Below are positions 3,232 to 38,635 of a DNA stretch of 64,000 nt, in pieces. The notes beneath the pieces are model-generated. The model did no database searches, was not told the DNA's origin, and worked only from the letters and a program-made list of their open reading frames with translations. Both the position numbers and the translations under genes were made by a program. Positions within the stretch are counted from its first letter, which is position 1; every line of letters begins with the position of its first letter. Origin of the DNA: Escherchia phage Stokescottia; the sequence record OR896820.1; one strand, written 5' to 3'.

Positions 3232-4122
3232 TTATACCAAATCTTTAAGCGATTCAGCAACTAAAATTTCAATACGTTTTGCTAACATATCAATTTCTTC
3301 TTTATTTAAGTCACCAGGGTCTTTACCTTCAGGCAGAAGAAAGTTAGCAACTACAGGTGTTAAACGCGTTTTTGTACGAATTAGCTTGGCCAACGCTTGT
3401 GCAGCTTTGTTACCAGAAGCATCATTATCTAGTAAGATAACAACAACTTTTACACCAGCAATAATATAAGGACTGAACTTATCTGCAATGTTATCCGAAG
3501 TAAACTGATGTGTACCAAAGCAGCAAGAAGCATAGTCTATACCATTATCCTCTAGGTTCAGCATATCAAAGATACCTTCAACTAGAATAAGAACTGGAGT
3601 ATTATATCGTACAGGGAAAATCGGTGGTGAAACTTGCTTTGGTTTTACTAAGTATTTAGGAGGGGCAGAACTGTTTATAGAACGACCCAAAAATAGGATA
3701 TTGCGTCCAACAGCATCTGTGATTGGGAATACAATTCTGCCTTCCCAGTCTGCTTGGTGTTGGAAAGCAAAATATTTCTTCAAGGTCTTAGAACTTATAC
3801 CTCGGAAATCACCTTCGAAAAGGTAAGCAGATTCAGGAATTGCAAGATTCGTAGATCCATTCCTAATCTCTGAAATCTTTTTACGTACCTGCGATAGTCT
3901 TGGGGACTGTCGGTACTGAGTCTCATTAAAATAATGGTAAATGCTCGGTATACCTTTACCGAAGCCACAACTCAAGCAGTGCATAATACCTGTTTCAGGA
4001 TCAATACGCAAACTTGGGTGTTTATCGTCATGATCTGGATTGAGACAACAGATGAGGATGTCCCCACCTGTGTCTTTATATTCAATGCCTTTCAGATCAA
4101 GTAGTTCTGTTATTCTACTCAT
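3232..4122 (-). CDS. DNA primase (zinc-binding N-terminus plus Toprim domain)
   Basis: 296 aa; N-terminal CxxH...CxxC zinc motif (CCLNPDHDD...HCLSCGFGKG); Toprim-like LVEGIFDMLNLED...LLDNDASG. Confidence 0.75.
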   Translation of the reverse strand: MSRITELLDLKGIEYKDTGGDILICCLNPDHDDKHPSLRIDPETGIMHCLSCGFGKGIPSIYHYFNETQYRQSPRLSQVRKKISEIRNGSTNLAIPESAYLFEGDFRGISSKTLKKYFAFQHQADWEGRIVFPITDAVGRNILFLGRSINSSAPPKYLVKPKQVSPPIFPVRYNTPVLILVEGIFDMLNLEDNGIDYASCCFGTHQFTSDNIADKFSPYIIAGVKVVVILLDNDASGNKAAQALAKLIRTKTRLTPVVANFLLPEGKDPGDLNKEEIDMLAKRIEILVAESLKDLV

Positions 4123-5642
4123 ATATCGCTGGCCTGTTCACCTGTTGAATTTTCAGCTTTGTCTTTCTTAGCACGTTTAGGTTGAGCCGGCTTATCCTTC
4201 TCAATAGGGATAATGAACTCAGCTTCCATTTGAGATATATCTTCCATTGCTAGGTTGGTAGTGTTATCCATCCGCAGGGTTTCCCAGTTCATTTTAGGCA
4301 TAAACTTCACGCTATCAGAAGAACGAGTCTTAACGAAGTCAAACATAATAGCACCTTGACCATTATCAGCTTTTGCAGCATTAAGATTAGCAGCCATGTC
4401 AGCGGAATCAAGAATCCCCTTTGACATACGTGTTCTACCATCTTGATCAATCTGGTAAGGAGCTACACCAGCCACATTATGTTTCTGGCAGATAGATTTG
4501 AAAGACGAGCTGACAACCATCTGTTCTTTCCAGTCATACATATCAATGGTTTTAGAGTCTGGAAGTCTGGTCTGGTTAATATAGTCCAGTAAAGCTACTG
4601 TAACTTTATCTCCGTATCTAGCAACTAATTTATTTAATTCTACGTCAACTGTTGTAATAGACAGCTCAGGGTCATAAACAATAATCATAGGAGTATGTAG
4701 CTCATACCCTTCTATTAGCTTACTCTCCATATCGTAGAAATCACTCATCTTAGCCATTGTGTACTGTTTAACGAAGCTATCGAAAAGCTCTTCACCACCA
4801 TTAAACATTCTAGCTCTAGTTCTGGCTAATCTCAATAGAGCTGCACCTTCTAGAGTATTATTACGCATTGCTAATGCTGATACACCAGCTAACATGGCTA
4901 GATTACGTCTAAATACTTCATGTTCTTTCATCTCAATTGAGAAGTATGGAGCAATATCCCCATTCAAATATTGCTGAACCTGTATGTTTGAACAGATAAT
5001 GGATTTACCAGTACCACGCCAACCACCAAGCAGTAACGTTTCTGTGCGAGCTAAACCAATTTGAGCGTCGAACTCATTACAAATACCAAGAGCGATTAAG
5101 TTCAGTTTGGTATCTTCTTCTCTCTGGAAAATACGCATGTTATCTGCGTTGAATACTTTTCCAGTATTCGTTACTTTCTCTTCTAATTTTAAGTGAAGGG
5201 AGGCAACTCGGTTGAGAATTTCTCCCTGATCCAGCATTGTTAAATCTTGAAGCACGTCTGTTTCTAGAAGCTTCAGGAATAAATCCTGTGTATATTCAGC
5301 CTCTAGGACTTCAAGTGCCTGTTCCATGCTCACTTCTGGAATTTGAGTGTTAGCTAAGACGACTAGAGCTTGAGAAAGGCGGGCGTTCCTATTAGCCTCA
5401 AGCATCAGTGCGTCAATGGACGGCATTGTGTTATATTTTTTATAATAATTCTGGACGGCTTGGTAAATTGAGGAGAAAGCGTCATTAAAATGATCTTTAT
5501 GCAGTTTTGAGAATGTTTCCAATGCTATTTGCTTCTGTTCAGAAGCTAGAAGCATCTTCAACACTACAGCTTGCACGTTAAACAAGGTCATTCTCCTTTG
5601 CACGCTTTCGTGCCTTCTAAATGCAAAAAGGGGAAGGAGCAT
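4119..5642 (-). CDS. replicative DNA helicase, DnaB-like
   Basis: 507 aa; Walker A GGWRGTGKS; 4-nt overlap with primase; start uncertain because a terminator-like hairpin overlaps the first codons. Confidence 0.7.
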   Translation of the reverse strand: MLLPLFAFRRHESVQRRMTLFNVQAVVLKMLLASEQKQIALETFSKLHKDHFNDAFSSIYQAVQNYYKKYNTMPSIDALMLEANRNARLSQALVVLANTQIPEVSMEQALEVLEAEYTQDLFLKLLETDVLQDLTMLDQGEILNRVASLHLKLEEKVTNTGKVFNADNMRIFQREEDTKLNLIALGICNEFDAQIGLARTETLLLGGWRGTGKSIICSNIQVQQYLNGDIAPYFSIEMKEHEVFRRNLAMLAGVSALAMRNNTLEGAALLRLARTRARMFNGGEELFDSFVKQYTMAKMSDFYDMESKLIEGYELHTPMIIVYDPELSITTVDVELNKLVARYGDKVTVALLDYINQTRLPDSKTIDMYDWKEQMVVSSSFKSICQKHNVAGVAPYQIDQDGRTRMSKGILDSADMAANLNAAKADNGQGAIMFDFVKTRSSDSVKFMPKMNWETLRMDNTTNLAMEDISQMEAEFIIPIEKDKPAQPKRAKKDKAENSTGEQASDI

Positions 5643-30427: not shown

Positions 30428-31066
30428 ATGACTACTCGTATTTCTAAAACTCGCGCTCTGGCAACTATCAAATCTCTGGAAGCTAAAATCCGTAAAGCTA
30501 CTGAACAGCAGCTTCTGATTGCTGTTGGTGAAGGTAAGGATAAAAACCAGGTTGTAGTTGGCGCTGCAATCGAAGTAGCTGATCTGTCTACCCGTATTAA
30601 GACTGATTTCCAATCTCTGCTGGATATGATGTCTCAGCGTGATCGTATCAAATCTGCTCTGATTAAGAGCAATGCAGAAACAATCGTTGAGATCGGTTCT
30701 CGTAAAATGACTGTTGCGGAAGCAATTGAAGCTAAGCGCTCTATGGAGCTTAAAGCTCAACTGCTGGCTAACATGCGTAAGCAGTTCCATGCCGCTACGG
30801 TTAAATTTAATACGCAGAAAGCACAATTTGATGCTAAATATGAGCGTTTACAGGATAGTATGGCTACTCGCGATAAGAAAACTTCCGAAGATGAAGTTAA
30901 AATGCAGCTCAACCTGCTGGAACTCAAGAATACTCCATTCTTGATTGACCCGCTGGAACTGGAAAAGCTGATTAAGCAGCATGACGAGGAATATCAGGAC
31001 TTTGCAACAAATGTTGACTTTGTTCTGTCCGAGTCTAACGCCTCTACCTTCATTGAAGTAGAGTAA
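30428..31066 (+). CDS. hypothetical protein
   Basis: 212-aa ORF, charged and probably helical. Confidence 0.45.
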   Translation: MTTRISKTRALATIKSLEAKIRKATEQQLLIAVGEGKDKNQVVVGAAIEVADLSTRIKTDFQSLLDMMSQRDRIKSALIKSNAETIVEIGSRKMTVAEAIEAKRSMELKAQLLANMRKQFHAATVKFNTQKAQFDAKYERLQDSMATRDKKTSEDEVKMQLNLLELKNTPFLIDPLELEKLIKQHDEEYQDFATNVDFVLSESNASTFIEVE

Positions 31067-31448
31067 TAATTTAAAAGCTAGTAAATCGGTAGACGAAAGC
31101 CCAAGCATCTTACCTCGCAGCAGCGGTTGAAATACGAGGTTAAATAAGACCGCTGACCATACTATAAAGTATAATCTATTGGAGATTATGTTTATTACAC
31201 CAGCCTTTTAAGCTGACACGTAAGAACAAAGCGTCGTTGATATTACCGACACAACTTCAAAGATCAACATTTAAGTATGAAAGCTGAAAAGTTTAAAGAA
31301 CTCAAACTTCTAAACTTCTAAAGCTAAAAGATGCAAAGTATTCGTTGATGATTCAAACCCTAGATCAAAGGTACATGGCTCATAAGATATGGCCTGTGGC
31401 GCCTCTAGGCTGTTTATCGGTTTACTAGTTTCACAATTTAAAAATGTA

Positions 31449-31478
31449 TTTGCTAATTTACTAAGTTATCTGTATAAT
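31449..31478 (+). promoter_or_regulatory. early-type promoter
   Basis: TTGCTA, 18-nt spacer, TGTATAAT. Confidence 0.55.
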
Positions 31479-31508
31479 ATATTTTTAAATTGATGAAACG
31501 AGGCTATT

Positions 31509-31826
31509 ATGACTTTTCATATTTTGATTGATGATGTGCGTAATCTTCACGGAATGGACATTATCATTCGAACCCCAGAAGCCGCTGTAGAGTTTCTGAA
31601 TAAAACTGATACCACAGGCCATTTCGTTTATATGGATAATGACTTGGCTGTAGATGGTATGGAGGGTTATCAAATTCTTCGTTTACTCTTAGAATTTGGG
31701 CAGAGACCAAAGAAAGTGGTACTAGTAACCTCGAACCCAGTAGCTAAGCAAAATATGCGTAATGATTTGCTTGACTTAGGGTATAAAGAAAATCCCAATC
31801 GTGTTGAATATGATTGGCAGGAGTAA
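31509..31826 (+). CDS. hypothetical protein
   Basis: 105-aa ORF. Confidence 0.4.
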   Translation: MTFHILIDDVRNLHGMDIIIRTPEAAVEFLNKTDTTGHFVYMDNDLAVDGMEGYQILRLLLEFGQRPKKVVLVTSNPVAKQNMRNDLLDLGYKENPNRVEYDWQE

Positions 31827-31831
31827 AAAGA

Positions 31832-32281
31832 ATGAAGGCAGCTTTGCTTTTAGTAGCTGCCCTTACCTTCAGCTTTAGTAGTCAGGCATCGCACGATGCA
31901 AGAGAAATAGATTGCATTGCTAAAAATATCTATTTCGAAAGTCGTGGTGAGGGCATAAAGGGAATGACGGCGATTGCACATGTTACTAAAAACCGTGTAA
32001 ACTCCGGTAAATTCCCAGATTCCTACTGTAAAGTAGTATATCAGTCTAACCAGTTCTCTTGGGTATCTAAGAGACCAAAAGTTGATAAAACTGATGAGGC
32101 TTGGCAAACCGCTAAGAATTTAGCTAGAGTGATATACTACGTTGATTTACCACAAGATCCTACACATGGAGCACTATACTTCCACAGTGGTAAAGATAAA
32201 CCTTACTGGACAAAGAAGTTTAAGAAAACAACTAAGATTAAGGGACATACGTTTTATAAACCTGTTGTCACTAAAACTTAA
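31832..32281 (+). CDS. SleB-like cell wall hydrolase with signal peptide
   Basis: N-terminal signal MKAALLLVAALTFSFSSQA; hydrolase-like NIYFESRGE...HVTKNRV...QFSWV. Confidence 0.6.
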   Translation: MKAALLLVAALTFSFSSQASHDAREIDCIAKNIYFESRGEGIKGMTAIAHVTKNRVNSGKFPDSYCKVVYQSNQFSWVSKRPKVDKTDEAWQTAKNLARVIYYVDLPQDPTHGALYFHSGKDKPYWTKKFKKTTKIKGHTFYKPVVTKT

Positions 32282-32289
32282 AAATTTAC

Positions 32290-32318
32290 TTGCTTAAATA
32301 CTTAAATTTCCGTATAAT
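32290..32318 (+). promoter_or_regulatory. early-type promoter
   Basis: TTGCTT, 17-nt spacer, TATAAT, then CATAAATTAATGAGAGG box. Confidence 0.6.
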
Positions 32319-32349
32319 ACTTCCATAAATTAATGAGAGGAAGCGAAAT

Positions 32350-32520
32350 ATGAAATCAGTTGTAATTATTGGTGTTAACACTCGCGGTATTCGTACTACG
32401 AAAACTGTTAAAACTTCTAACGTTGCTGAAATCACTACGAACCCTAAAAAGTTTGATTTCGCCAAAGTCTCAGCAGTTATGACAGAACAATCTTTTAACC
32501 AAGCGTTAGGAATGAAATAA
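32350..32520 (+). CDS. hypothetical small protein
   Basis: 56-aa ORF (below the 60-aa track cut-off) placed right after promoter and SD. Confidence 0.35.
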   Translation: MKSVVIIGVNTRGIRTTKTVKTSNVAEITTNPKKFDFAKVSAVMTEQSFNQALGMK

Positions 32521-32963
32521 TGGAAGAGAATATTTTAGATGTTTTGCGTAGAGCTTTGCAGGATTCTAAGTTTAATGGTTCTGATAAAGAAGTCGCCAAA
32601 AGCTATCAGACCATAATTGGGGATCTTCAGCGTATTGATAAAGATTTCATCACTTCTGAACAATTTGTGTCTTATCTCAAAGCTCAACTAAAAAGCATTA
32701 ACCAGATGAAAGCTAAACTTCATGGTCAAGATCTCGATAGTTATAGCCTACAGTCTGCTCAGTATGAATACATTCTAAATAAGTGGTTGCAGGAGTATCT
32801 GCCCCCTCAGTTATCTGATACTGAGATTCGTAAATACTTTGCAGAATTAGTTAAGCTAAACCCTGGAATTACAAAGGGTATGCTGATGAAAGCGATTAAG
32901 GAAGAATTTCCTGGGCGTTATGATGGTGGTACTGCTGCTCAGATTGCTGGCGAATTTAATTAA
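32520..32963 (+). CDS. GatB/YqeY-domain-like protein
   Basis: 147 aa; C-terminal ...KGMLMKAIKEEFPGRYDGGTAAQIAGEF resembles YqeY. Confidence 0.4.
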   Translation: MEENILDVLRRALQDSKFNGSDKEVAKSYQTIIGDLQRIDKDFITSEQFVSYLKAQLKSINQMKAKLHGQDLDSYSLQSAQYEYILNKWLQEYLPPQLSDTEIRKYFAELVKLNPGITKGMLMKAIKEEFPGRYDGGTAAQIAGEFN

Positions 32964-32971
32964 AAATTCAT

Positions 32972-33000
32972 TTGCTAAATGCTTATAAATTCTGTATAAT
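32972..33000 (+). promoter_or_regulatory. early-type promoter reading into a non-coding region
   Basis: TTGCTA, 17-nt spacer, TGTATAAT; no ORF follows for ~900 nt. Confidence 0.6.
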
Positions 33001-33224
33001 ATATTCATAAATTAGGGAACAGCGAGCCGATTACGCTGAGTGCAGAATCCCAACCGGAGCGCATTGAATAGAGTCGGTGGGTTAGTTGTAAAACTAGTAC
33101 ACAGGGGGCGGCAATTCCGGTTAGTGGCTAGAACGTGTAAAATGAGGCGTCTGAAACCTCTCCCCTAAACTCTTCTCTAATTTATAAATAGTGGGGTGTG
33201 GAAATCACTTATGTAGTAACACTG

Positions 33225-33295
33225 CCGTCCTAGTATAATTGGTATTATCAAGCCGTAACTGGTGGAAGATGTAGGTTCGAATCCTACGGTCGGTA
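33225..33295 (+). ncRNA. degenerate tRNA-like element
   Basis: Canonical T-arm GTAGG TTCGAAT CCTAC but no canonical acceptor or anticodon stems. Confidence 0.25.
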
Positions 33296-33797
33296 AGAAC
33301 TGGATAACTGGTGCTTTTAACGTAAAAGCTTCCGAGGTTAGTTGCGCACTGCCTAAACCACGCGGTAGTTGGTTCCAGACTAACCAACCAGTCTGCTGAA
33401 TAGTTTTATTACGATTTAACTATGTCCAGGCTAAAGAAGAACTTTAGAAGGTATTCTAGGATAGTGAAGTTCTTTCTCCATATCGGAGTAGTTTTTCAAG
33501 CTATCCACAAAGTGGGAAATGCTGACATGAGAGATGTCACTAATGGTGCACAATAGCACAGGTAATTCGCGATAATTCCTGTTGAGTAGCAGCAAAAGGC
33601 GGGAAGTCATGACCCCAAGCCTAACCGAGTCCTCAATATACCGCAGGACATAACCACTAAGTCACCCTGACTTAAACTGGAAAATAATAGACGTTACCGT
33701 ATTTTGTCTTGAAATACTTAATGAGTGGGACTTATGACTCTCCCGGTATCGTCTGTATTTTTAAGAGTTTTTACGAGAGTTCTTAAAAATACTTAAA

Positions 33798-33872
33798 CGG
33801 GGTGTAGTCTAAGGGAGAGGCAGGAGTCTTCTAAATTCCTTTATGCAGGTTCGAATCCTGTCACCTCGGCCA
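33798..33872 (+). tRNA. tRNA-Arg(TCT)
   Basis: Hand-folded cloverleaf: acceptor CGGGGTG/CACCTCG, anticodon loop CTTCTAA, T-loop TTCGAAT, encoded CCA. Confidence 0.65.
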
Positions 33873-33906
33873 ATTTTATTAACTGTAACTAAAACAAAGG
33901 AAATAT

Positions 33907-34854
33907 ATGTTTGCTACTAAAAACACTAAAGAACTGACTTATGAGCAAAAATTAATGCGTAATATCAAACGTTGGGGTATTGGGGCTGCAGTTGGTTTGG
34001 TAGGTTTAGTTCTGGCTCTTAACTCTTACACTGTTGTTCAAGACGGTACTGTTAAAACCCAGACTTTCCTGGGTAAAGTTGACCCTAGCCCAGTATTACC
34101 CGGCTTTCATATTGTAAATCCTTTTGCTTCTTTCGATACTTTTAGTACTAAAGATATTGCTCTAAAATTAGATAAACTTCAGGTTCCTAGTCAGGATAAG
34201 TTTAAATCCACTGTTGACCTGACTGTTATGTTGCAGTTTGATGGTTCTAAGGCACCGATTAACCGTATTAATGCAGGTACTCAGGATCAAGCATTAGACA
34301 AATATGTAACTGAAAAATTACTGTCTACTATTCGTGAGTTTGGTAAGTCTGTACCTAAAGCACAAGATTTATTTGATGCTAAAATTCAGGCTCAATTGCA
34401 AACTGCAATTCAACAGGAAGTTGAAGAGTATGCACGCCCATATGGTTACACAGTTAAGCAGGTGTTTCTTCAGGATATTACTTTGCCACCGGTAATCATG
34501 GAACAGGTACAGAATACCAAAGTTCGTGAAGAGCAAGTTAATGCTGCGAAAGCTGAGCTTGCTCGTGTTGAACAGGAAGCACAGCAAAAAGTTAAACAAG
34601 CAGAAGCAGATCGTGAAGCTCGCAATAACCAAGCTATTGCTAATGAACGTGACGCAGATGCTAAACTGTACGCAGCTAAGAAAGAAGCTGAAGCTAACGC
34701 CGCACTGCAACGTACCATTACTCCTGAGATGATTCGTTGGAAACAACTGGAAGTTGAGATGATTCGTGCTCAGAAATATCAAGGTGGTGTACCTCAGACT
34801 GTAGTTGGCACTGGCTATGATGGTCAAATGATCATGGATATGCGTAACAAGTAA
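33907..34854 (+). CDS. SPFH/band-7-like membrane protein
   Basis: 315 aa; N-terminal TM helix, then domain followed by Ala/Glu-rich coiled coil. Confidence 0.5.
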   Translation: MFATKNTKELTYEQKLMRNIKRWGIGAAVGLVGLVLALNSYTVVQDGTVKTQTFLGKVDPSPVLPGFHIVNPFASFDTFSTKDIALKLDKLQVPSQDKFKSTVDLTVMLQFDGSKAPINRINAGTQDQALDKYVTEKLLSTIREFGKSVPKAQDLFDAKIQAQLQTAIQQEVEEYARPYGYTVKQVFLQDITLPPVIMEQVQNTKVREEQVNAAKAELARVEQEAQQKVKQAEADREARNNQAIANERDADAKLYAAKKEAEANAALQRTITPEMIRWKQLEVEMIRAQKYQGGVPQTVVGTGYDGQMIMDMRNK

Positions 34855-34878
34855 TAGTTACACGTAATCTTCGAACTA

Positions 34879-34915
34879 AGCCCGCGTTTTCTCCGAGAGC
34901 GCGGGCTTTTCTGTA
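34879..34915 (+). terminator. rho-independent terminator
   Basis: AAGCCCGCG...CGCGGGCTT hairpin followed by TTTCTGTATTT. Confidence 0.6.
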
Positions 34916-34920
34916 TTTAA

Positions 34921-34968
34921 GGAAAAAGAAAAAGCCCCTTACCTTTCGGCAGGGGCTTTTGTTTTTTG
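34921..34968. terminator. bidirectional terminator between convergent genes
   Basis: AGCCCCTT...AGGGGCT hairpin flanked by an A-run upstream and a T-run downstream. Confidence 0.6.
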
Positions 34969-35174
34969 GTTTAGAACCACACTCTCGGTGTACAGCAACC
35001 ACCTATATGGGAGGCCAACCTTGACTGAAAATCTACTCTAGGGGGCAGGATAAGAGTAGGCTTAAAGGCAAACGGATTGAACGCCGGTATTTGCGTAAAC
35101 ATTGCTGGAGAGCAACAACGTGCTACAGGCATTGGGCAGCACGAAACAGATTTTCTGCAACACATAATTCCTCC

Positions 35175-35591
35175 TTAGGAGTTATTACCACCATTTTGAG
35201 CTTTTGCAACTTGGCTTTGGCAGAAGCTATTAAACTTACCCATAAGTGATACAAGCTGCTTCCCGTCCTCTGTCTTTGCGAAGTCTTCGAAAAGGGCTAG
35301 TACTGCCTGTCCTTCCGCAGAAACCTGCGGTTGTTGGGTTTGTTGCTGAACTTGCTGCTGCGGCATCTGTTGCTGCATTTGTTGAGGCATTTGCGACTGC
35401 CCGCTCATTTGCTGCATCATTTGCATAGGACTCACACTTCCAGGGTTTTGCTGGAGTTGTTGCTGCATCTGTTGCGCTTCTGCTAAACGCTGTTGCAACT
35501 GTTGTAAGTAGGGGTTATCCAGACCCGGCATGGGCTGCTGGGAGCCCATACTTTGATTAAGTCCGTTATTTACAAAACCATATTTACTCAT
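35175..35591 (-). CDS. glutamine-rich hypothetical protein
   Basis: 138 aa; long Q/M-rich low-complexity core. Confidence 0.45.
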   Translation of the reverse strand: MSKYGFVNNGLNQSMGSQQPMPGLDNPYLQQLQQRLAEAQQMQQQLQQNPGSVSPMQMMQQMSGQSQMPQQMQQQMPQQQVQQQTQQPQVSAEGQAVLALFEDFAKTEDGKQLVSLMGKFNSFCQSQVAKAQNGGNNS

Positions 35592-35612
35592 AATGGGCTC
35601 CTCCCCTTAATA

Positions 35613-36605
35613 TTAAGCCGGCAGTTTAGCCTGCAGACCAGCCAGAGTCTGAGTGATAGCACCAAGACTTAAAGCGATTTGATTAATTACCTGACCGTTA
35701 GCACCGCTACCCGCAGCGATTGCTTCACGTAGGCGACATGCATCTAACTCATCCTGGATACGCGCAGTAGTTACACCAGCGATCGCAGTCTGAAGCTCAC
35801 AGCAGCACTCAGCAAGCTGGCGTTCGATAGAGTTCTGGTTAGCACACATCTGAGCCTGAACAGCGGCAAACTGGTTATTAGTTTGTAAAGTCTGCTGGAA
35901 AGCGATCTGTGCAGAATCAAACTTATCTTGTGCACGAGCTATCTGGTTAGCTGCGAAAGATTGATCAATCTGGCGAGAAAGATCGAACTGACCCTGAATA
36001 ACGTTGCGAGTTTCCTGGCAGATCTGATTAGACAGATTAGCACCTGTACCATAGATCGTAGTTAGTACAGACTGAGTATCACGGCTCTGGTTTTGGGATG
36101 TCTGGCTAAAACCATTGTTAACTGCGCTTAAAACAGCTCCAGTACCCTGGTTAGCTTCTGTACGAGTAGTGTTAATAGCTGCTAGAATACTAGCGGTATC
36201 TTGGTTCTGAAGTACTGCATCAACTGCGGTACCTTCACCAACTATACCACGTCCACCGAATCCACCGAAACCACCGAATCCGCCTGTTAATAGAGCACCG
36301 ATTAGGATAGCTCCGAATAGTCCCATACCTTCACCACCGAAAGCGCCTGCGTTTGCTGGGTAACCACCCATTAGGCCAGGGAAGCCACTAGTGAATACGT
36401 TTACTGGTTCTTGCATTTTACGTTTTCCATATTTATGACAATACTCATCATCGTCATCTTCTTCATCATCTTCATCGTGTTCACGATGTTTCTCTTCGTA
36501 GGCTCTGACCTTCTCCCACTTTTTCTTATCTGATTCCTCGTGACGGTGCAGTTCTGCTGCAACGCTAGCGACGGTCTCAGGACTCTTAGCTACTTCTTCT
36601 GTCAT
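35613..36605 (-). CDS. glycine-rich hypothetical protein with acidic N-terminal tract
   Basis: DEDDEEDDDDEY tract, GGFGGFGGFGG repeat, Q/N/T-rich tail; ATG at 36605 has AGGAGG SD. Confidence 0.5.
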   Translation of the reverse strand: MTEEVAKSPETVASVAAELHRHEESDKKKWEKVRAYEEKHREHDEDDEEDDDDEYCHKYGKRKMQEPVNVFTSGFPGLMGGYPANAGAFGGEGMGLFGAILIGALLTGGFGGFGGFGGRGIVGEGTAVDAVLQNQDTASILAAINTTRTEANQGTGAVLSAVNNGFSQTSQNQSRDTQSVLTTIYGTGANLSNQICQETRNVIQGQFDLSRQIDQSFAANQIARAQDKFDSAQIAFQQTLQTNNQFAAVQAQMCANQNSIERQLAECCCELQTAIAGVTTARIQDELDACRLREAIAAGSGANGQVINQIALSLGAITQTLAGLQAKLPA

Positions 36606-36812
36606 TTTTTGACACCTCCTAGTATATAGAAAATGTGTGTCTCTTTGATCACTCATCCATAACATATACTTTACACTACCCCAGCGAAAATGTCAAGGGG
36701 TCTTTAAAAATTGCCCCTGGATTTTTAGTGGGGTCACAAATTTTGGTCCTCACCACTTATCTGCTACCCTTAAGTGCCCTATGATTTTCCTCTAAAAAGT
36801 TAAAAAATTTGA

Positions 36813-36841
36813 TTGCTTGAATGCTAAATTCTCTGTATAAT
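36813..36841 (+). promoter_or_regulatory. early-type promoter
   Basis: TTGCTT, 17-nt spacer, TGTATAAT, then CTATAAATTTGAGAGAGG box. Confidence 0.6.
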
Positions 36842-36871
36842 ATATCTATAAATTTGAGAGAGGAACCAAAT

Positions 36872-37390
36872 ATGAATGTTGATGAGCTAACACAGCACCT
36901 CTTATCTAGAGGATTTGATACAGATAAATATCATTGCTGGTTAAGTCCGGAAGGGTGGCTAACAGTCCCGTTGTATGATTTCTCTGGAATGTTGAGGGGC
37001 TATCAAACTTATAATCCTTCTGCTCCAAAAGGTCATGGTAAGTGCCCCTTTGAAGCTAAATACTTTACTTATTCTACTACACAGTGTGTATGGGGACTAG
37101 AAACTCTCAATGGGGATGAAAAAGTAGTATTGATTGCTGAATCTGTATTTAAGGCAGTTGCATTACATAATGCTGGTTATCCAGCCCTAGCAATGTTAGG
37201 TTCTTCTCCAGGAAAAGCGTTATTAAAGCAACTGAAATTACTACCCTTTAAATTGGTAGCTGTCGGGGATAATGATCCTGCGGGTGAAAAATTTGCTAGA
37301 AAATTAAACGGCTTTGTTTCTCCCGTAGATGTGGATGAGATGTCTACCGAAAACTTGAAAAATTTTCTTGCTATGAAGCTAAATTTCTAA
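36872..37390 (+). CDS. Toprim-domain protein
   Basis: 173 aa; Glu in LIAESVF and DxD in VGDNDPAG suggest a Toprim fold. Confidence 0.45.
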   Translation: MNVDELTQHLLSRGFDTDKYHCWLSPEGWLTVPLYDFSGMLRGYQTYNPSAPKGHGKCPFEAKYFTYSTTQCVWGLETLNGDEKVVLIAESVFKAVALHNAGYPALAMLGSSPGKALLKQLKLLPFKLVAVGDNDPAGEKFARKLNGFVSPVDVDEMSTENLKNFLAMKLNF

Positions 37391-37396
37391 TATAAT
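37367..37396 (+). promoter_or_regulatory. early-type promoter driving the tRNA island
   Basis: TTGCTA, 18-nt spacer, TATAAT; overlaps the 3' end of the Toprim ORF; tRNA-Ser begins ~16 nt after the -10. Confidence 0.55.
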
Positions 37397-37411
37397 ATAT
37401 CTTATAAATTC

Positions 37412-37500
37412 GGAAGAATAGCATAACGGTATTGCAGCAGATTGCTAATCTGTCGGTTTGAAATATAGCCTTGTGGGTTCGATTCCCACTTCTTCCGCCA
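37412..37500 (+). tRNA. tRNA-Ser(GCT)
   Basis: Acceptor GGAAGAA/TTCTTCC, anticodon loop TTGCTAA, long variable arm, encoded CCA. Confidence 0.7.
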
Positions 37501-37505
37501 AATTT

Positions 37506-37583
37506 GGTTCTCAAGCTCATATGGTATGAGCACCCGGCTCATAACCGGAAGGTACGTAGGTTCGAATCCTCGGGGAGCCACCA
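37506..37583 (+). tRNA. tRNA with CAT anticodon (Met or Ile2)
   Basis: Acceptor GGTTCTC/GGGAGCC, D-stem GCTC/GAGC, anticodon loop CTCATAA; T-stem imperfect. Confidence 0.55.
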
Positions 37584-37601
37584 ATTAAATAGAGGTCACA
37601 A

Positions 37602-37790
37602 ATGGATCTATATATAGTTTATGTTGTGTTTATTCAAGATAGAGAATACCCGGATGAATATAAAAAAGGATATAGGTTAGCCAGAGCTACATCTGAAGCC
37701 CAAGCTATGGATAAAGTGGCGGATTATATGATTACGGTAGAAAACGTACACTATATCGACTACCTTGAAGCCTCAAAAGTAATTGACTAA
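37602..37790 (+). CDS. hypothetical protein
   Basis: 62-aa ORF inside the tRNA island. Confidence 0.35.
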   Translation: MDLYIVYVVFIQDREYPDEYKKGYRLARATSEAQAMDKVADYMITVENVHYIDYLEASKVID

Positions 37791-37799
37791 GGAGACTAT

Positions 37800-37985
37800 A
37801 TGTCTAAGTTTCAAGAACTCAAGCAAGAGCTAGAAGAATGTGCCTGCCCTGAGTGTAGGGGAATTGGTGAAAGTTCTGATGCAGAAGCAGGAGATACTTT
37901 TTGCAATATCTGGGTTTGCCCAAATTGCAAGGGTACAGGTATTAATCCTAACTGCGGTATTTCCCTAGATATTGAACGAGGATAA
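37800..37985 (+). CDS. hypothetical zinc-ribbon-like protein
   Basis: 61 aa with CxxC...CxxC (CACPECRG...CPNCKG). Confidence 0.4.
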   Translation: MSKFQELKQELEECACPECRGIGESSDAEAGDTFCNIWVCPNCKGTGINPNCGISLDIERG

Positions 37986-38086
37986 TACCTGTGAAACTAA
38001 AAGATTATTATATTGGTTGGTTTGTAGGACTAGTAGTAGGATTTTCACTAGGCTATAATATGTATCAACTAATAAACTGATTACAC

Positions 38087-38163
38087 GGGGGTGTAATCGA
38101 ATTGGCATAGGTACTGGACTTAAAATTCAGGTTTTGTGGGTTCGAATCCCACCACCACTACCA
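38087..38163 (+). tRNA. tRNA-Leu(TAA), atypical short variable loop
   Basis: Anticodon loop CTTAAAA, T-arm GTGGG TTCGAAT CCCAC, encoded CCA; one acceptor mismatch; 5-nt variable loop. Confidence 0.5.
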
Positions 38164-38338
38164 AATTAAGGAAATAAGATGTATAGACATCCACCTCCGC
38201 CAACACGTCGTTCTAGAGAAGTTATTCTCATGGAATTGACTAAAAACTTCAAGGCAACCCTTGAAGATAGAGATCTAGGCACGGATGAAGACATTGATTT
38301 TATTTGTAGACTATTAAAGATGAAACTGGAGAAACAAC

Positions 38339-38545
38339 ATGGCTAATCCTGAAATTACCGCACAACGTTTCATGCTTAAAGGTATGATTGCTGAGGCGGG
38401 TATAACTCAAGAGGTTGCAGATTTTCATAAGCAATTTCTTGATATTATAACTCTAGCTAAAGAGACTGGAGAAAAAGAGCACGGAGCAGCAATTATGGCT
38501 ATATCTCTTATTAGTCTAGACTTGGCTGAAGAATCTGGAGTTTAG
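38339..38545 (+). CDS. hypothetical protein
   Basis: 68-aa ORF. Confidence 0.35.
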   Translation: MANPEITAQRFMLKGMIAEAGITQEVADFHKQFLDIITLAKETGEKEHGAAIMAISLISLDLAEESGV

Positions 38546-38575
38546 CTCCTCCAAACAGAATTTTTAAAAATGTAC

Positions 38576-38605
38576 TTGCCTTTTGCTTTAAATTTCTGGT
38601 ATAAT
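38576..38605 (+). promoter_or_regulatory. early-type promoter
   Basis: TTGCCT, 18-nt spacer, TGgTATAAT, then TATAAATTGATGAAGGAG box. Confidence 0.55.
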
Positions 38606-38635
38606 AATTATATAAATTGATGAAGGAGTTAACTA

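What the first reader, a model, noticed from the sequence alone, without database searches (positions are those of the whole stretch)
34855..36665. Convergent minus-strand pair encoding Gln-rich and Gly-rich low-complexity proteins
Inside the plus-strand block, two minus-strand genes encode an acidic-tract plus GGFGGFGG-repeat protein and a poly-Q/M protein. They are separated from the SPFH-like gene by a bidirectional terminator. Low-complexity proteins of this kind are unusual in phage early regions and could be membrane-associated, phase-separating or scaffold-like.
Basis: seen in the sequence. Interest (0 to 1): 0.45.

Follow-up and report, generated by a model that had tools for sequence, protein, structure and literature searches.

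The report
Mobile three-gene phage membrane cassette
The two "low-complexity" genes are real, conserved phage T5 genes (T5.077 and T5.078) that, with an overlooked third gene for a cysteine-pair-rich 64-residue protein, form a self-contained, non-essential operon found in several unrelated phage families, and its function is still unknown.

Summary
The window is a T5-like phage. The minus strand carries a promoter, three tightly packed genes and a bidirectional terminator. This unit equals T5 P12-T5.077-T5.078-T5.079.

- **Gene A (330 aa):** a charged His/acid N-extension, an uncharged Gly-rich segment (GMGLFGAILIGALLTGGFGGFGGFGG), then about 200 aa of Gln/Asn/Ala-rich helix with an invariant CCC.
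- **Gene B (138 aa):** a conserved helix, a length-variable Gln/Met/Pro linker and a well-conserved helical hairpin.
- **Gene C (64 aa):** It starts MCC and carries four Cys pairs.

A and B are under purifying selection (dN/dS 0.10-0.20). The A-B-C order recurs in T5-like, N4-like, lambdoid and Pseudomonas KPP23-like phages.

Gene A belongs to a large phage-only family of about 600 clusters, including crAss-like phages, where it is labelled "spike protein/glycoprotein". Pfam, NCBIfam and PADLOC gave no match. PDB gave only weak hits to class I fusion-protein coiled coils.

The cassette is dispensable in T5 (CRISPRi-ART "Not Fit"; viable T5Mos deletion). It is not the phage's spanin.

My best guess, at low confidence, is an inner-membrane-anchored coiled-coil complex that acts on the envelope during phage competition. 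Interest is moderate.

The parts
36668..36696 (-). Sigma-70-type promoter-like site (TTGACA, 17 nt spacer, TAAAGT) upstream of gene A. It corresponds to promoter P12 annotated in the T5 record.
35613..36605 (-). Gene A, 330 aa plus stop. It is the homologue of T5.077 and belongs to phrog_8119. It has a charged N-extension, a Gly-rich hydrophobic anchor and a long Gln/Asn/Ala-rich helical domain.
   Evidence: dN/dS 0.145-0.176
36354..36605 (-). Gene A residues 1-84. This is the charged N-extension (net charge -10, His/Lys/acid-rich), with a confidently modelled helix at residues 9-44 and the conserved EPVNVFTxGFPG motif next to the anchor. It occurs only in family members that come with genes B and C.
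36252..36329 (-). Gene A residues 93-118, GMGLFGAILIGALLTGGFGGFGGFGG. This is the predicted single membrane anchor of glycine-zipper type.
   Evidence: Gly positions are invariant across the family
35799..35807 (-). Gene A residues 267-269, the invariant Cys-Cys-Cys inside the motif IAECCCE.
35175..35591 (-). Gene B, 138 aa plus stop. It is the homologue of T5.078 and belongs to phrog_7894.
   Evidence: dN/dS 0.10-0.20
35319..35447 (-). Gene B residues 49-91, the Gln/Met/Pro-rich linker. Its length varies between homologues and it is predicted to be disordered.
35190..35318 (-). Gene B residues 92-134, the near-invariant helical hairpin (EGQAVLALFEDFAKTEDGKQLVSLMGKFNSFCQSQVAKA).
   Evidence: pLDDT 82-92
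34971..35165 (-). Gene C, 64 aa plus stop. It is the homologue of T5.079 (AAS77125). It starts MCC, has four Cys-Cys pairs, an NPF motif and an aromatic C-terminus.
34923..34961 (.). Hairpin with U-runs on both strands. It is the bidirectional intrinsic terminator that ends the A-B-C operon.
34878..34917 (+). Intrinsic terminator of the convergent SPFH gene (33907..34854). It contains AGCGC at 34898, which matches the consensus the T5 record gives for its DNA nick sites.

Best explanation
**What it is (shown)**

This is a self-contained accessory operon with its own promoter, three translationally packed genes and its own terminator. It equals T5 P12-T5.077-T5.078-T5.079. It behaves as a mobile cassette, because the same A-B-C gene order sits in non-homologous genome positions in at least five unrelated phage groups.

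**How it most likely works (inferred)**

- Gene A is a bitopic inner-membrane protein. Its charged N-extension stays in the cytoplasm, because about 14 Lys/Arg and 23 Asp/Glu could hardly cross the membrane without a signal peptide.
- The Gly-rich segment forms a self-associating glycine-zipper anchor.
- The roughly 200-residue Gln/Asn/Ala-rich helical domain projects into the periplasm as an oligomeric coiled coil. The conserved Cys cluster (C254, CCC267-269) would staple it by disulfide bonds there.
- Genes B and C have no export signal. They occur only with family members that carry the N-extension. I therefore place them as cytoplasmic partners that dock on that extension. B would do this through its conserved helical hairpin, with the Gln/Pro linker acting as a flexible tether. 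C would do this through its Cys pairs, possibly with a bound metal.

**Likely function (a guess, about 30%)**

I think it is an early-expressed, dispensable envelope module that helps the phage in competition. It could exclude superinfecting phages or otherwise shield or alter the infected cell's envelope. I do not think it is a core replication, assembly or lysis function.
For: **Operon anatomy.** See, and the T5 record annotation of promoter P12 and the bidirectional terminator.

**Real genes.** dN/dS is 0.10-0.20 for A and B.

**Gene C.**
- It lies directly downstream of B in 37 of 38 T5-type loci by an automatic scan. Manual reading found it, C-terminally extended, in the one locus the scan missed, GSW6.
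- It always starts MCC or MSCNCGC and has further Cys pairs.

**Cassette recurrence.**
- Pseudomonas phages RSP and KPP23.
- Two other contigs of about 110 kb.
- An N4-like contig carrying a virion RNA polymerase gene.
- A lambdoid contig, where it sits between the antiterminator Q gene and the holin-lysozyme-Rz genes in the opposite orientation.
- A further contig, L048.

**Partners track the N-extension.**
- No crAss-type or L005-type locus has a C-like ORF (0 of 101).
- Almost none has a B-like ORF (1 of 85 and 6 of 48).
- These family members lack the N-extension.
- A divergent member that has an N-extension (P0275) is followed by an NPYL/Gln-rich B-like ORF.

**Membrane anchor and helices.**

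**Family size and coherence.**
- 608 representatives at E<=1e-3.
- hhalign probabilities are 98.7% and 96.3% between subtypes.

**Phage-only distribution.**

**Dispensable in T5.**
- T5.077, T5.078 and T5.079 all score 'Not Fit' in CRISPRi-ART (PMC11879866, supplementary files 8 and 16).
- The viable T5Mos deletion 30661-38625 ends inside T5.077 (PMC11464382; coordinates).

**Accessory neighbourhood.** The genes around it are accessory or counter-defence genes: tRNAs, an SPFH gene, and T5.076, which is annotated as anti-retron.
Against: - No experiment addresses the function.
- Topology is not settled. Lys/Arg counts in the 20 residues either side of the anchor lean slightly the other way (0.1-0.4 on the N side against 0.9-1.0 on the C side). 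The short N-tails of the crAss-type proteins are acidic, which would also fit an N-out, C-in orientation.
- The best-conserved part of A is its C-terminal 90 residues, not the N-extension. The Cys-rich tails fused to many crAss-type proteins resemble gene C. Both facts would be easier to explain if B and C met A's C-terminal domain, which would then have to be cytoplasmic.
- In crAss-like phages the A homologue sits in the late structural and lysis operon. That does not suit an early exclusion role.
- No known superinfection-exclusion protein resembles it.
- The AF2 models are poor overall (pLDDT 52.6 and 61.4).
Confidence: 0.35

Rival explanations
1. It is a complex on the cytoplasmic face of the membrane. 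Gene A would be inserted N-out, C-in, or as a re-entrant hairpin. Its long helical domain, gene B and gene C would all be cytoplasmic, and the Cys clusters would bind a metal or an Fe-S centre. The complex would then act on a host cytoplasmic or membrane-proximal target, for example as a counter-defence or host-takeover factor.
For: - B and C lack signal peptides (sequences).
- The strongest conservation in A lies in the C-terminal domain.
- Many crAss-type proteins end in Cys-rich tails (CGC, CGCGC) fused to that same domain. These tails resemble gene C.
- Lys/Arg counts are slightly higher after the anchor than before it.
- The neighbouring gene T5.076 is annotated as an anti-retron gene.
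Against: - The T5-type N-extension is 70-105 residues long and carries many Lys/Arg, so it is unlikely to cross the membrane without a signal peptide.
- There is no PADLOC or other hit linking it to defence.
- The presence of the N-extension tracks the presence of B and C. That argues that the extension is their docking site.
Confidence: 0.2
2. It is an auxiliary lysis or membrane-fusion factor. It would be a spanin-like, class-I-fusogen-like protein that bridges or fuses the inner and outer membranes, or that tunes lysis timing.
For: - The architecture fits: an anchor, a long helical domain with Cys, and a small Pro/Cys-rich partner.
- The only PDB profile hits are to coronavirus S2 HR1 and influenza HA2 (E 7e-4 to 0.08).
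- crAss homologues are annotated 'spike protein/glycoprotein'.
- In cr116_1 the homologue lies about 1.2 kb after the holin and L,D-carboxypeptidase genes. In a lambdoid contig it is adjacent to holin-lysozyme-Rz.
- Dispensability in the laboratory is also typical of spanins (own knowledge).
Against: [quoted passage not shown]
- The lambdoid contig has its own Rz.
- Gene C has no lipoprotein signal.
- The T5 operon has an early sigma-70-type promoter.
- In TAG-recoded crAss loci the A gene is depleted in TAG codons (8% against about 23%). The 'spanin' family reported for such phages is TAG-enriched.
- The PDB hits are weak and largely reflect coiled-coil composition.
Confidence: 0.15
3. It is a virion or ejection protein that is packaged and inserted into the next host's envelope.
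For: - crAss-type and L005-type homologues lie among tail and head genes.
- Some records annotate them as 'outer capsid protein/viral fiber'.
- None of the three proteins has a signal peptide.
Against: - In T5-like, N4-like and lambdoid phages the cassette is an autonomous unit outside the structural modules. In T5 it has an early promoter.
- It is dispensable.
- The profile search found no solved virion protein as a relative.
Confidence: 0.05
4. One reading: these are low-complexity proteins that act by phase separation or as a scaffold.
For: - Gene B has a 43-residue Gln/Met/Pro tract predicted to be disordered.
- A's helical domain is 23% Gln plus Asn.
Against: - The tract varies in length and composition and is nearly absent in some homologues (101-111 aa versions), while the flanking domains are invariant. 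That is the behaviour of a linker.
- A's Gln/Asn-rich region is predicted to be helical and is conserved in register.
Confidence: 0.05
5. The ORFs are spurious products of compositionally biased DNA.
For: Gene C shows no clear purifying selection within T5-like phages (dN/dS 0.55-1.45, based on only 12-18 substitutions).
Against: - dN/dS is 0.10-0.20 for A and B.
- There are hundreds of homologues.
- Gene order is conserved across genomes that share almost no detectable DNA similarity.
- The gene C ORF is retained with the same MCC/CC/NPF features in eight lineages.
Confidence: 0.01

Closest known systems
Two-component spanins (lambda Rz/Rz1 type)
   Same: Both have a bitopic inner-membrane protein with a long helical domain containing Cys, plus a small Pro- and Cys-rich partner encoded just downstream. 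Both are dispensable in ordinary laboratory culture. In some phages the cassette lies close to lysis genes.
   Different: - There is no sequence relationship.
- Gene C has no signal peptide or lipobox.
- There is a third component, gene B.
- The T5 operon has an early promoter.
- The same genomes already carry canonical spanins.
Class I viral fusion proteins (influenza HA2, coronavirus S2 HR1, retroviral TM)
   Same: Both have a Gly-rich hydrophobic segment followed by a long Gln/Asn/Ala/Ser-rich heptad helix. In T5 the segment begins GLFGAI, which are also the first six residues of the HA2 fusion peptide (own knowledge). Both have a Cys cluster within the helical region, comparable to the retroviral CX6CC motif (own knowledge). 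These proteins are the only PDB profile hits. The resemblance is also the apparent source of the 'spike protein/glycoprotein' label in crAss genomes.
   Different: - The E-values are only 7e-4 to 0.08 and are driven by coiled-coil composition.
- There is no receptor-binding subunit and no cleavage site.
- It is not shown to be in virions.
- The hydrophobic segment is internal or N-proximal and probably serves as the anchor itself.
Phage superinfection-exclusion and lytic-conversion membrane proteins (T4 Imm and Sp, T5 Llp, HK97 gp15, P22 SieA)
   Same: Both are early or constitutive, non-essential, envelope-located accessory genes with their own promoter. Both sit in variable regions of phage genomes. 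This comparison rests on my own knowledge of those systems.
   Different: Those proteins are single small proteins with no long coiled coil. There is no homology to them, and exclusion has not been tested here.
Metallothionein-like or Cys-rich small proteins (comparison for gene C only)
   Same: Gene C has vicinal Cys pairs, high Pro content and small size. The lambdoid version begins MSCNCGCGG.
   Different: The minimal versions have only four Cys. There is no family match in any library. Metal binding is untested.
Pro/Gln-rich tethers of divisome proteins such as ZipA and FtsK (comparison for gene B's linker only)
   Same: Both have a flexible, length-variable Gln/Pro-rich spacer between conserved interaction modules (and own knowledge).
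   Different: There is no homology, and gene B has no membrane anchor of its own.

Membership tests
Two-component spanin (i-spanin plus o-spanin) | The i-spanin has an N-terminal transmembrane domain followed by a periplasmic, largely helical coiled-coil domain. | tested here: inconclusive
   Gene A has one hydrophobic segment and about 200 residues of predicted helix. The segment is preceded by 92 charged residues, and the topology is unproven.
Two-component spanin (i-spanin plus o-spanin) | The o-spanin is an outer-membrane lipoprotein with a signal peptide and a lipobox Cys. | tested here: not met
   Gene C starts MCCRKSVSCC with no hydrophobic signal core. Its best 19-residue hydropathy window averages only 0.85. 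The same holds for the eight divergent versions.
Two-component spanin (i-spanin plus o-spanin) | It is the phage's outer-membrane disruption function, normally the only one, and is encoded in the lysis cassette. | tested here: not met
   T5-like phages are reported to have holin, endolysin and Rz-like spanins elsewhere. The lambdoid contig carries PF03245 Rz next to its holin and lysozyme genes. In T5 the cassette is an early unit in the tRNA region.
Class I viral fusion protein | It shows significant sequence or fold similarity to a fusion subunit beyond coiled-coil composition. | tested here: inconclusive
   The profile search against PDB gave a best E-value of 6.6e-4 (S2 HR1 construct) and about 0.01-0.05 for HA2. 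The AF2 model is too poor for a fold search.
Class I viral fusion protein | It is a virion surface protein with a trimer-of-hairpins post-fusion core. | not testable with these tools
   No multimer prediction or virion proteome was available. T5 has no envelope (own knowledge).
Known anti-phage defence or counter-defence protein families (PADLOC) | It matches a curated model. | tested here: not met
   There were no hits for A, B, C or three distant A homologues at E<=0.1.
Any curated protein family (Pfam-A, NCBIfam) | It scores above the curated cut-off. | tested here: not met
   In Pfam the best hit is Rifin at 15.5 bits against a cut-off of 32, and nothing was found for B. I did not scan C against Pfam. 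NCBIfam found nothing for A, B or C. Only the PHROGs families of unknown function matched: 8119, 7894 and 16490.
Autonomous accessory ('moron'-type) transcription unit | It has its own promoter and terminator, sits in non-homologous positions in unrelated phages, and is dispensable. | tested here: met
   The promoter and terminator are shown. The differing genomic contexts are shown. Dispensability is shown. The raised G+C content (47-48% against 39%) is mostly due to amino-acid composition. GC3 is 0.35, 0.48 and 0.44 for A, B and C, against 0.28-0.36 for other genes.

The most novel reading that the evidence does not exclude
The cassette may be a previously unrecognised and widespread class of phage membrane machine. 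It would be built on a class-I-fusogen-like protein with a fusion-peptide-like Gly-rich segment, a long heptad helix and a Cys cluster. A Cys-pair protein and a Gln-tethered adaptor would serve as dedicated partners. The machine would remodel or fuse host membranes independently of the spanins. That would make it a bacterial-virus counterpart of eukaryotic viral fusion glycoproteins, shared by T5-like, N4-like, lambdoid and crAss-like phages.
Probability: 0.1. Interest if true: 0.8.

Novelty: new variant of a known kind. Interest (0 to 1): 0.42.

Why it matters
- **Reach of the family.** The gene A family has about 600 clusters at 50% identity. It runs through some of the most-studied and most abundant phages (T5-like, N4-like, lambdoid and crAss-like) and has no assigned function.
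- **Annotation fixes.** Recognising a fixed three-gene module gives a defined, dispensable and easily deleted unit to test in T5. It also flags two annotation problems: a third gene that most gene callers miss, and the misleading 'cAMP-dependent protein kinase catalytic subunit' label on gene B.
- **If it is an exclusion or envelope-shielding system,** it would add a new protein architecture to phage-phage competition.
- **If the fusogen resemblance is real,** the significance would be considerably greater.
- **Otherwise,** it remains one more conserved accessory operon of unknown function.

Tried and rejected
1. **Spanin identity.** Rejected as a membership claim. Gene C has no lipoprotein signal, and T5-like and lambdoid carriers have their own spanins.
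2. **The A-like crAss gene as the TAG-enriched 'spanin' family of Borges et al..** Rejected. In 36 TAG-recoded loci the A gene uses TAG for 8% of Gln codons, against about 23% in its neighbours.
3. **A metal-handling theme** (His-rich N-extension in A, Met-rich B, Cys-rich C). The His and Met richness is not conserved outside T5-like phages, so it is not a core feature.
4. **Functional link to the neighbouring SPFH gene.** The adjacency is seen only in the T5-like phages, not in the other lineages.
5. **Fold search.** The gene B model found nothing in PDB. The gene A model was too poor to search.
6. **Pfam, NCBIfam and PADLOC.** No hits. I did not scan gene C against Pfam.
7. **Literature.** Searches for T5.077-T5.080 found no paper text. 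Only a supplementary table mentions them.
8. **Collection scans for more T5-type cassettes.** The IMG/VR and metagenome scans returned only T5-like phages. The scans of bacterial genomes found essentially nothing.
9. **Horizontal acquisition from the G+C rise.** This is weak evidence, because the rise comes mostly from Ala/Gly/Gln codon content.
10. **Hydrophobic 3.5-residue periodicity of A's helical domain.** Not significant against shuffles (p about 0.13). The 'coiled coil' description therefore rests on predicted long helices and on the PDB hits, not on a heptad test.
Full report
**Where we are**

The 2.1 kb around the finding is 97% identical to many Tequintavirus genomes, that is T5-like phages of Escherichia and Salmonella. 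The window also carries the T5-type cluster of 21 tRNA genes.

In the reference T5 record the equivalent stretch is annotated in this order:
- promoter P12;
- T5.077;
- T5.078;
- an unnamed 64-codon CDS (AAS77125; T5.079 in later tables);
- an 'efficient bidirectional rho-independent transcription terminator';
- a DNA nick site;
- the convergent gene T5.080.

All three proteins are labelled hypothetical. A full-text search for T5.077 to T5.080 found no paper.

**Checking the observation**

The two minus-strand ORFs are present.

Gene A starts at ATG 36605, not at 36665:
- AGGAGG lies 9 nt upstream of 36605.
- All homologues begin MTEEV or MTDEV.
- The promoter-like site TTGACA-17-TAAAGT at 36696..36668 would start transcription downstream of the 36665 ATG.

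Gene A composition:
- Residues 1-84 are a charged extension with net charge -10 and the run DEDDEEDDDDE.
- Residues 85-125 are 44% Gly.
- The stretch GMGLFGAILIGALLTGGFGGFGGFGG has 26 residues with no charged or amide side chain. Its best 19-residue hydropathy window averages 1.72.
- Residues 126-330 are 16% Ala, 15% Gln and 8% Asn.

Gene B is 28% Gln and 9% Met, concentrated in residues 49-91.

Two hairpins separate the operon from the SPFH gene (Band_7, E 2.5e-17):
- One terminates the SPFH gene.
- The other has U-runs on both strands.

The description is therefore correct. It omits a third gene, C, at 34971..35165(-). Its AAGGAGG site overlaps the stop codon of B. It encodes MCCRKSVSCCPMPVARCCSPAMFTQIPAFNPFAFKPTLILPPRVDFQSRLASHIGGCCTPRVWF.

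**Are these genes real?**

I compared the window with T5, Seabear, SpoonbillGilly and EscoHU1.
- dN/dS is 0.145-0.176 for A and 0.10-0.20 for B. Both are under purifying selection.
- Gene C gives 0.55-1.45, but from only 12-18 substitutions.

The case for gene C rests on comparative anatomy instead.
- tblastn finds it in 221 phage records, against 222 for A.
- An ORF with the same hallmarks follows B in every independent lineage I could read. The hallmarks are a start of MCC (or MSCNCGC), a second Cys pair 17-30 residues later, an NP(F/V) motif, and an aromatic, basic or Cys-rich end.
- Gene callers mostly miss it. The 5.8-billion-protein collection holds a single cluster for it.

**Anatomy of the proteins**

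Gene A, AF2 model:
- The model used a 15-sequence alignment and is poor overall (pLDDT 52.6).
- It gives a confident N-terminal helix at residues 9-44 (pLDDT 80-92).
- It gives nearly continuous helix from residue 127 to 326, including one helix of 126 residues.

Gene A, conserved features across T5-type homologues:
- the motif EPVNVFTxGFPG next to the anchor;
- the Gly positions of the anchor;
- C254 and the CCC at 267-269, within IAECCCE;
- the last 90 residues, including TARIQDELD and NGQVINQIAVSLGAITQTLAALQAK.

A test for 3.5-residue hydrophobic periodicity was not significant (p about 0.13). 'Coiled coil' is therefore an inference from the long predicted helices.

Gene B:
- It has a conserved N-terminal motif and helix (NPYLQQLQQRLxEAQ).
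- It has a linker whose length and composition vary greatly. Homologues range from 101 to 146 aa, and nearly all of the difference is in the linker.
- It has a near-invariant C-terminal helical hairpin modelled with pLDDT 82-92.

The poly-Gln/Met tract is thus a tether and not the functional core. A Foldseek search with the B model found nothing in PDB.

**The cassette is mobile**

The same A-B-C order occurs in these settings:

| Setting | Context |
|---|---|
| Pseudomonas phages RSP and KPP23 (63 kb) | Next to, and divergent from, the terminase and head genes |
| Two contigs of about 110 kb | About 42% identity in A |
| An N4-like contig | Between the virion RNA polymerase gene and replication genes |
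| A lambdoid contig | Between antiterminator Q and the holin-lysozyme-Rz genes, in the opposite orientation |
| A 17 kb contig | Carries RdgC |

Across these lineages the DNA shares almost nothing. Only a 220-nt patch reaches about 67% identity between RSP and the Epseptimavirus phages.

Scans of 185,579 species-representative bacterial genomes gave these results:
- No T5-type relative was found.
- One relative of another subtype was found, on a 2 kb MAG contig.

**The wider family of gene A**

- A profile search of 1.84 billion representative proteins found 608 relatives at E<=1e-3 and 132 at E<=1e-10, nearly all 240-340 aa.
- Profile-profile comparison confirms homology between subtypes. T5-type against a myophage-associated subtype gives 98.7% probability (E 2.6e-16). 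T5-type against the crAss-associated subtype gives 96.3% (E 1.8e-9).
- The other two subtypes lack the charged N-extension. Their N-tails are 60 residues or fewer, averaging about 30.
- They also lack partners. None of 101 loci has a C-like ORF. A B-like ORF appears in 1 of 85 loci of one subtype and 6 of 48 of the other.
- A divergent member that does have an N-extension (P0275) is followed by an NPYL/Gln-rich ORF.
- The N-extension and the partners therefore travel together. This is my main argument that B and C dock on the extension.
- In crAss-like genomes the homologue is annotated 'spike protein/glycoprotein' or 'outer capsid protein/viral fiber'.
- There it lies in the late operon. In cr116_1 it is about 1.2 kb after the holin and L,D-carboxypeptidase genes and before the capsid genes.
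- A Pfam scan of the four genes on either side in 18 diverse loci of these two subtypes (10 crAss-type, 8 myophage-associated) found DUF7841 11 times. It also found capsid, ring and hub proteins, and two amidases.

**Comparison with known things**

- Pfam, NCBIfam and PADLOC gave nothing for the proteins scanned. I did not scan gene C against Pfam.
- PHROGs gave only families of unknown function: 8119, 7894, 16490 and 9288.
- A family profile searched against all PDB sequences returned only weak hits (E 6.6e-4 to 0.08). Every one of the 60 hits shown was to a class I fusion protein, either coronavirus S2 HR1 or influenza HA2. This probably explains the crAss annotation. The T5 protein even contains GLFGAI, the first six residues of the HA2 fusion peptide (own knowledge). 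I treat this as a resemblance in design (a Gly-rich hydrophobic segment followed by a Gln/Asn/Ala-rich long helix), not as homology.
- The obvious phage analogue is the spanin. Membership fails for four reasons:
  - Gene C has no lipoprotein signal.
  - T5-like phages are reported to have their own holin, endolysin and spanins (PMC4342426, PMC11664485).
  - The lambdoid carrier has its own Rz.
  - A lead that the crAss homologue might be the TAG-enriched 'spanin' of Borges et al. was refuted. The A gene is TAG-depleted, at 8% against about 23%.

**Is it needed?**

- In the CRISPRi-ART screen of T5, T5.077, T5.078 and T5.079 are listed as 'unknown function' and all three score 'Not Fit' (PMC11879866, supplementary files 8 and 16).
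- The viable variant T5Mos carries a deletion of 30661-38625 (PMC11464382). In AY543070 coordinates this removes promoter P12 and the first 560 nt of T5.077. The inference assumes that both sources use the same numbering.
- The cassette is therefore dispensable on laboratory E. coli.
- Its neighbour T5.076 is the Toprim gene at 36821..37390 in the window. The same table annotates it as subverting retron defence. This fits an accessory, conflict-related neighbourhood.

**Most likely mechanism, and what is uncertain**

Shown:
- It is an autonomous three-gene operon.
- It is conserved, mobile, found only in phages and non-essential.
- Gene A has one strongly hydrophobic Gly-rich segment and a long helical domain with a conserved Cys cluster.
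- Gene B is two conserved modules joined by a variable tether.
- Gene C is a small protein with Cys pairs.

Inferred:
- Gene A is anchored in the inner membrane with its N-extension in the cytoplasm and its helical domain in the periplasm, where it oligomerises and is stapled by disulfides.
- B and C bind the N-extension from the cytoplasm.
- The function is an envelope-level accessory one that helps in competition with other phages. I put this specific reading at about 30%.

The main weakness is topology.
- Lys/Arg counts around the anchor lean slightly toward the opposite orientation.
- The conservation pattern and the Cys-rich tails of crAss-type proteins would be simpler to explain if the helical domain, B and C shared the cytoplasm. 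That is the second hypothesis (about 20%).
- A lysis-modulating or fusogenic role keeps about 15%, a virion or ejection role about 5%, and phase separation about 5%.

**Verdict**

The finding is real and somewhat richer than described, but it is not strange. It is a conserved accessory operon of unknown function that has sat in the T5 annotation for two decades.

What this analysis adds:
- the third gene;
- the fixed three-gene module;
- its spread across unrelated phage families;
- its link to a large family that includes the crAss 'spike glycoprotein' genes;
- the exclusion of the spanin explanation.

Interest is moderate (0.42).

Noticed in passing
window 34971-35165 (-): This is a third gene of the operon. 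It encodes a 64-aa protein that starts MCC and has four Cys-Cys pairs. Most deposited T5-like genomes leave it unannotated ('none' under the match in most rows). The 5.8-billion-protein collection holds only one cluster for it.
   Followed up: yes
window 34898 (+), inside the SPFH-gene terminator hairpin 34878-34908: AGCGC matches the consensus (Pu-GCGC) that the T5 record gives for its 'major DNA single-chain interruption'. The record annotates that nick at the equivalent position, between the terminator and T5.080. A T5 genome nick site may therefore lie within a terminator stem.
   Followed up: partly
window about 33000-33797 (+), upstream of tRNA-Arg at 33798-33872: This stretch corresponds to 'rnaX', which the T5 record annotates as a 719-nt stable RNA of unknown function adjoining tRNA-Arg. 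Only short ORFs of 60 aa or fewer are listed here, and G+C rises locally to 41-45%.
   Followed up: no
window 36821-37390 (+): This Toprim-domain gene is divergent from the cassette (Toprim_2, E 2.6e-5; phrog_849 'DNA primase'). It equals T5.076. The CRISPRi-ART supplement annotates it as 'anti-defense; subverts retron-mediated defense' and scores it 'Semi-Fit'.
   Followed up: partly
crAss-type loci L011-L013 and L049-L125 (36 TAG-recoded loci): In phages that read TAG as Gln, the gene A homologue uses TAG for only 8% of its Gln codons (77 of 1008). Neighbouring late genes use it for 19-32%. The gene may need to be translated before or independently of stop-codon suppression. The ORF calling behind this figure was crude.
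   Followed up: partly
window 35175-35591 (-) and homologues such as PQ462667 and MK728824: Several GenBank records label gene B 'cAMP-dependent protein kinase catalytic subunit'. Nothing supports this. There is no kinase domain in Pfam. The label probably spread from a low-complexity Gln-rich match.
   Followed up: yes
window 34971-36605 compared with L003 (T5), L018 (Seabear) and L015 (SpoonbillGilly): Synonymous divergence is very uneven along the operon. Against T5 and Seabear, dS is 0.47-0.61 in A but only 0.12 in B and 0.05-0.10 in C. Against SpoonbillGilly, dS in B is 0.93. This suggests recombination breakpoints inside the cassette.
   Followed up: no
L016 (EscoHU1) 4238-4768 and L017 (GSW6) about 3990-4310: In EscoHU1 an HNH endonuclease gene is inserted between the cassette terminator region and the SPFH gene. 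In GSW6 gene C has lost its usual stop codon and reads on for more than 40 extra codons.
   Followed up: partly
L015-L018 (Epseptimavirus and related), upstream of gene A: In these relatives the gene divergent from the cassette is a nicotinamide-nucleotide adenylyltransferase, followed in EscoHU1, GSW6 and Seabear by a nicotinamide mononucleotide transporter. In the window and in T5 it is the Toprim gene. The flank of the cassette is therefore itself a variable accessory region.
   Followed up: no
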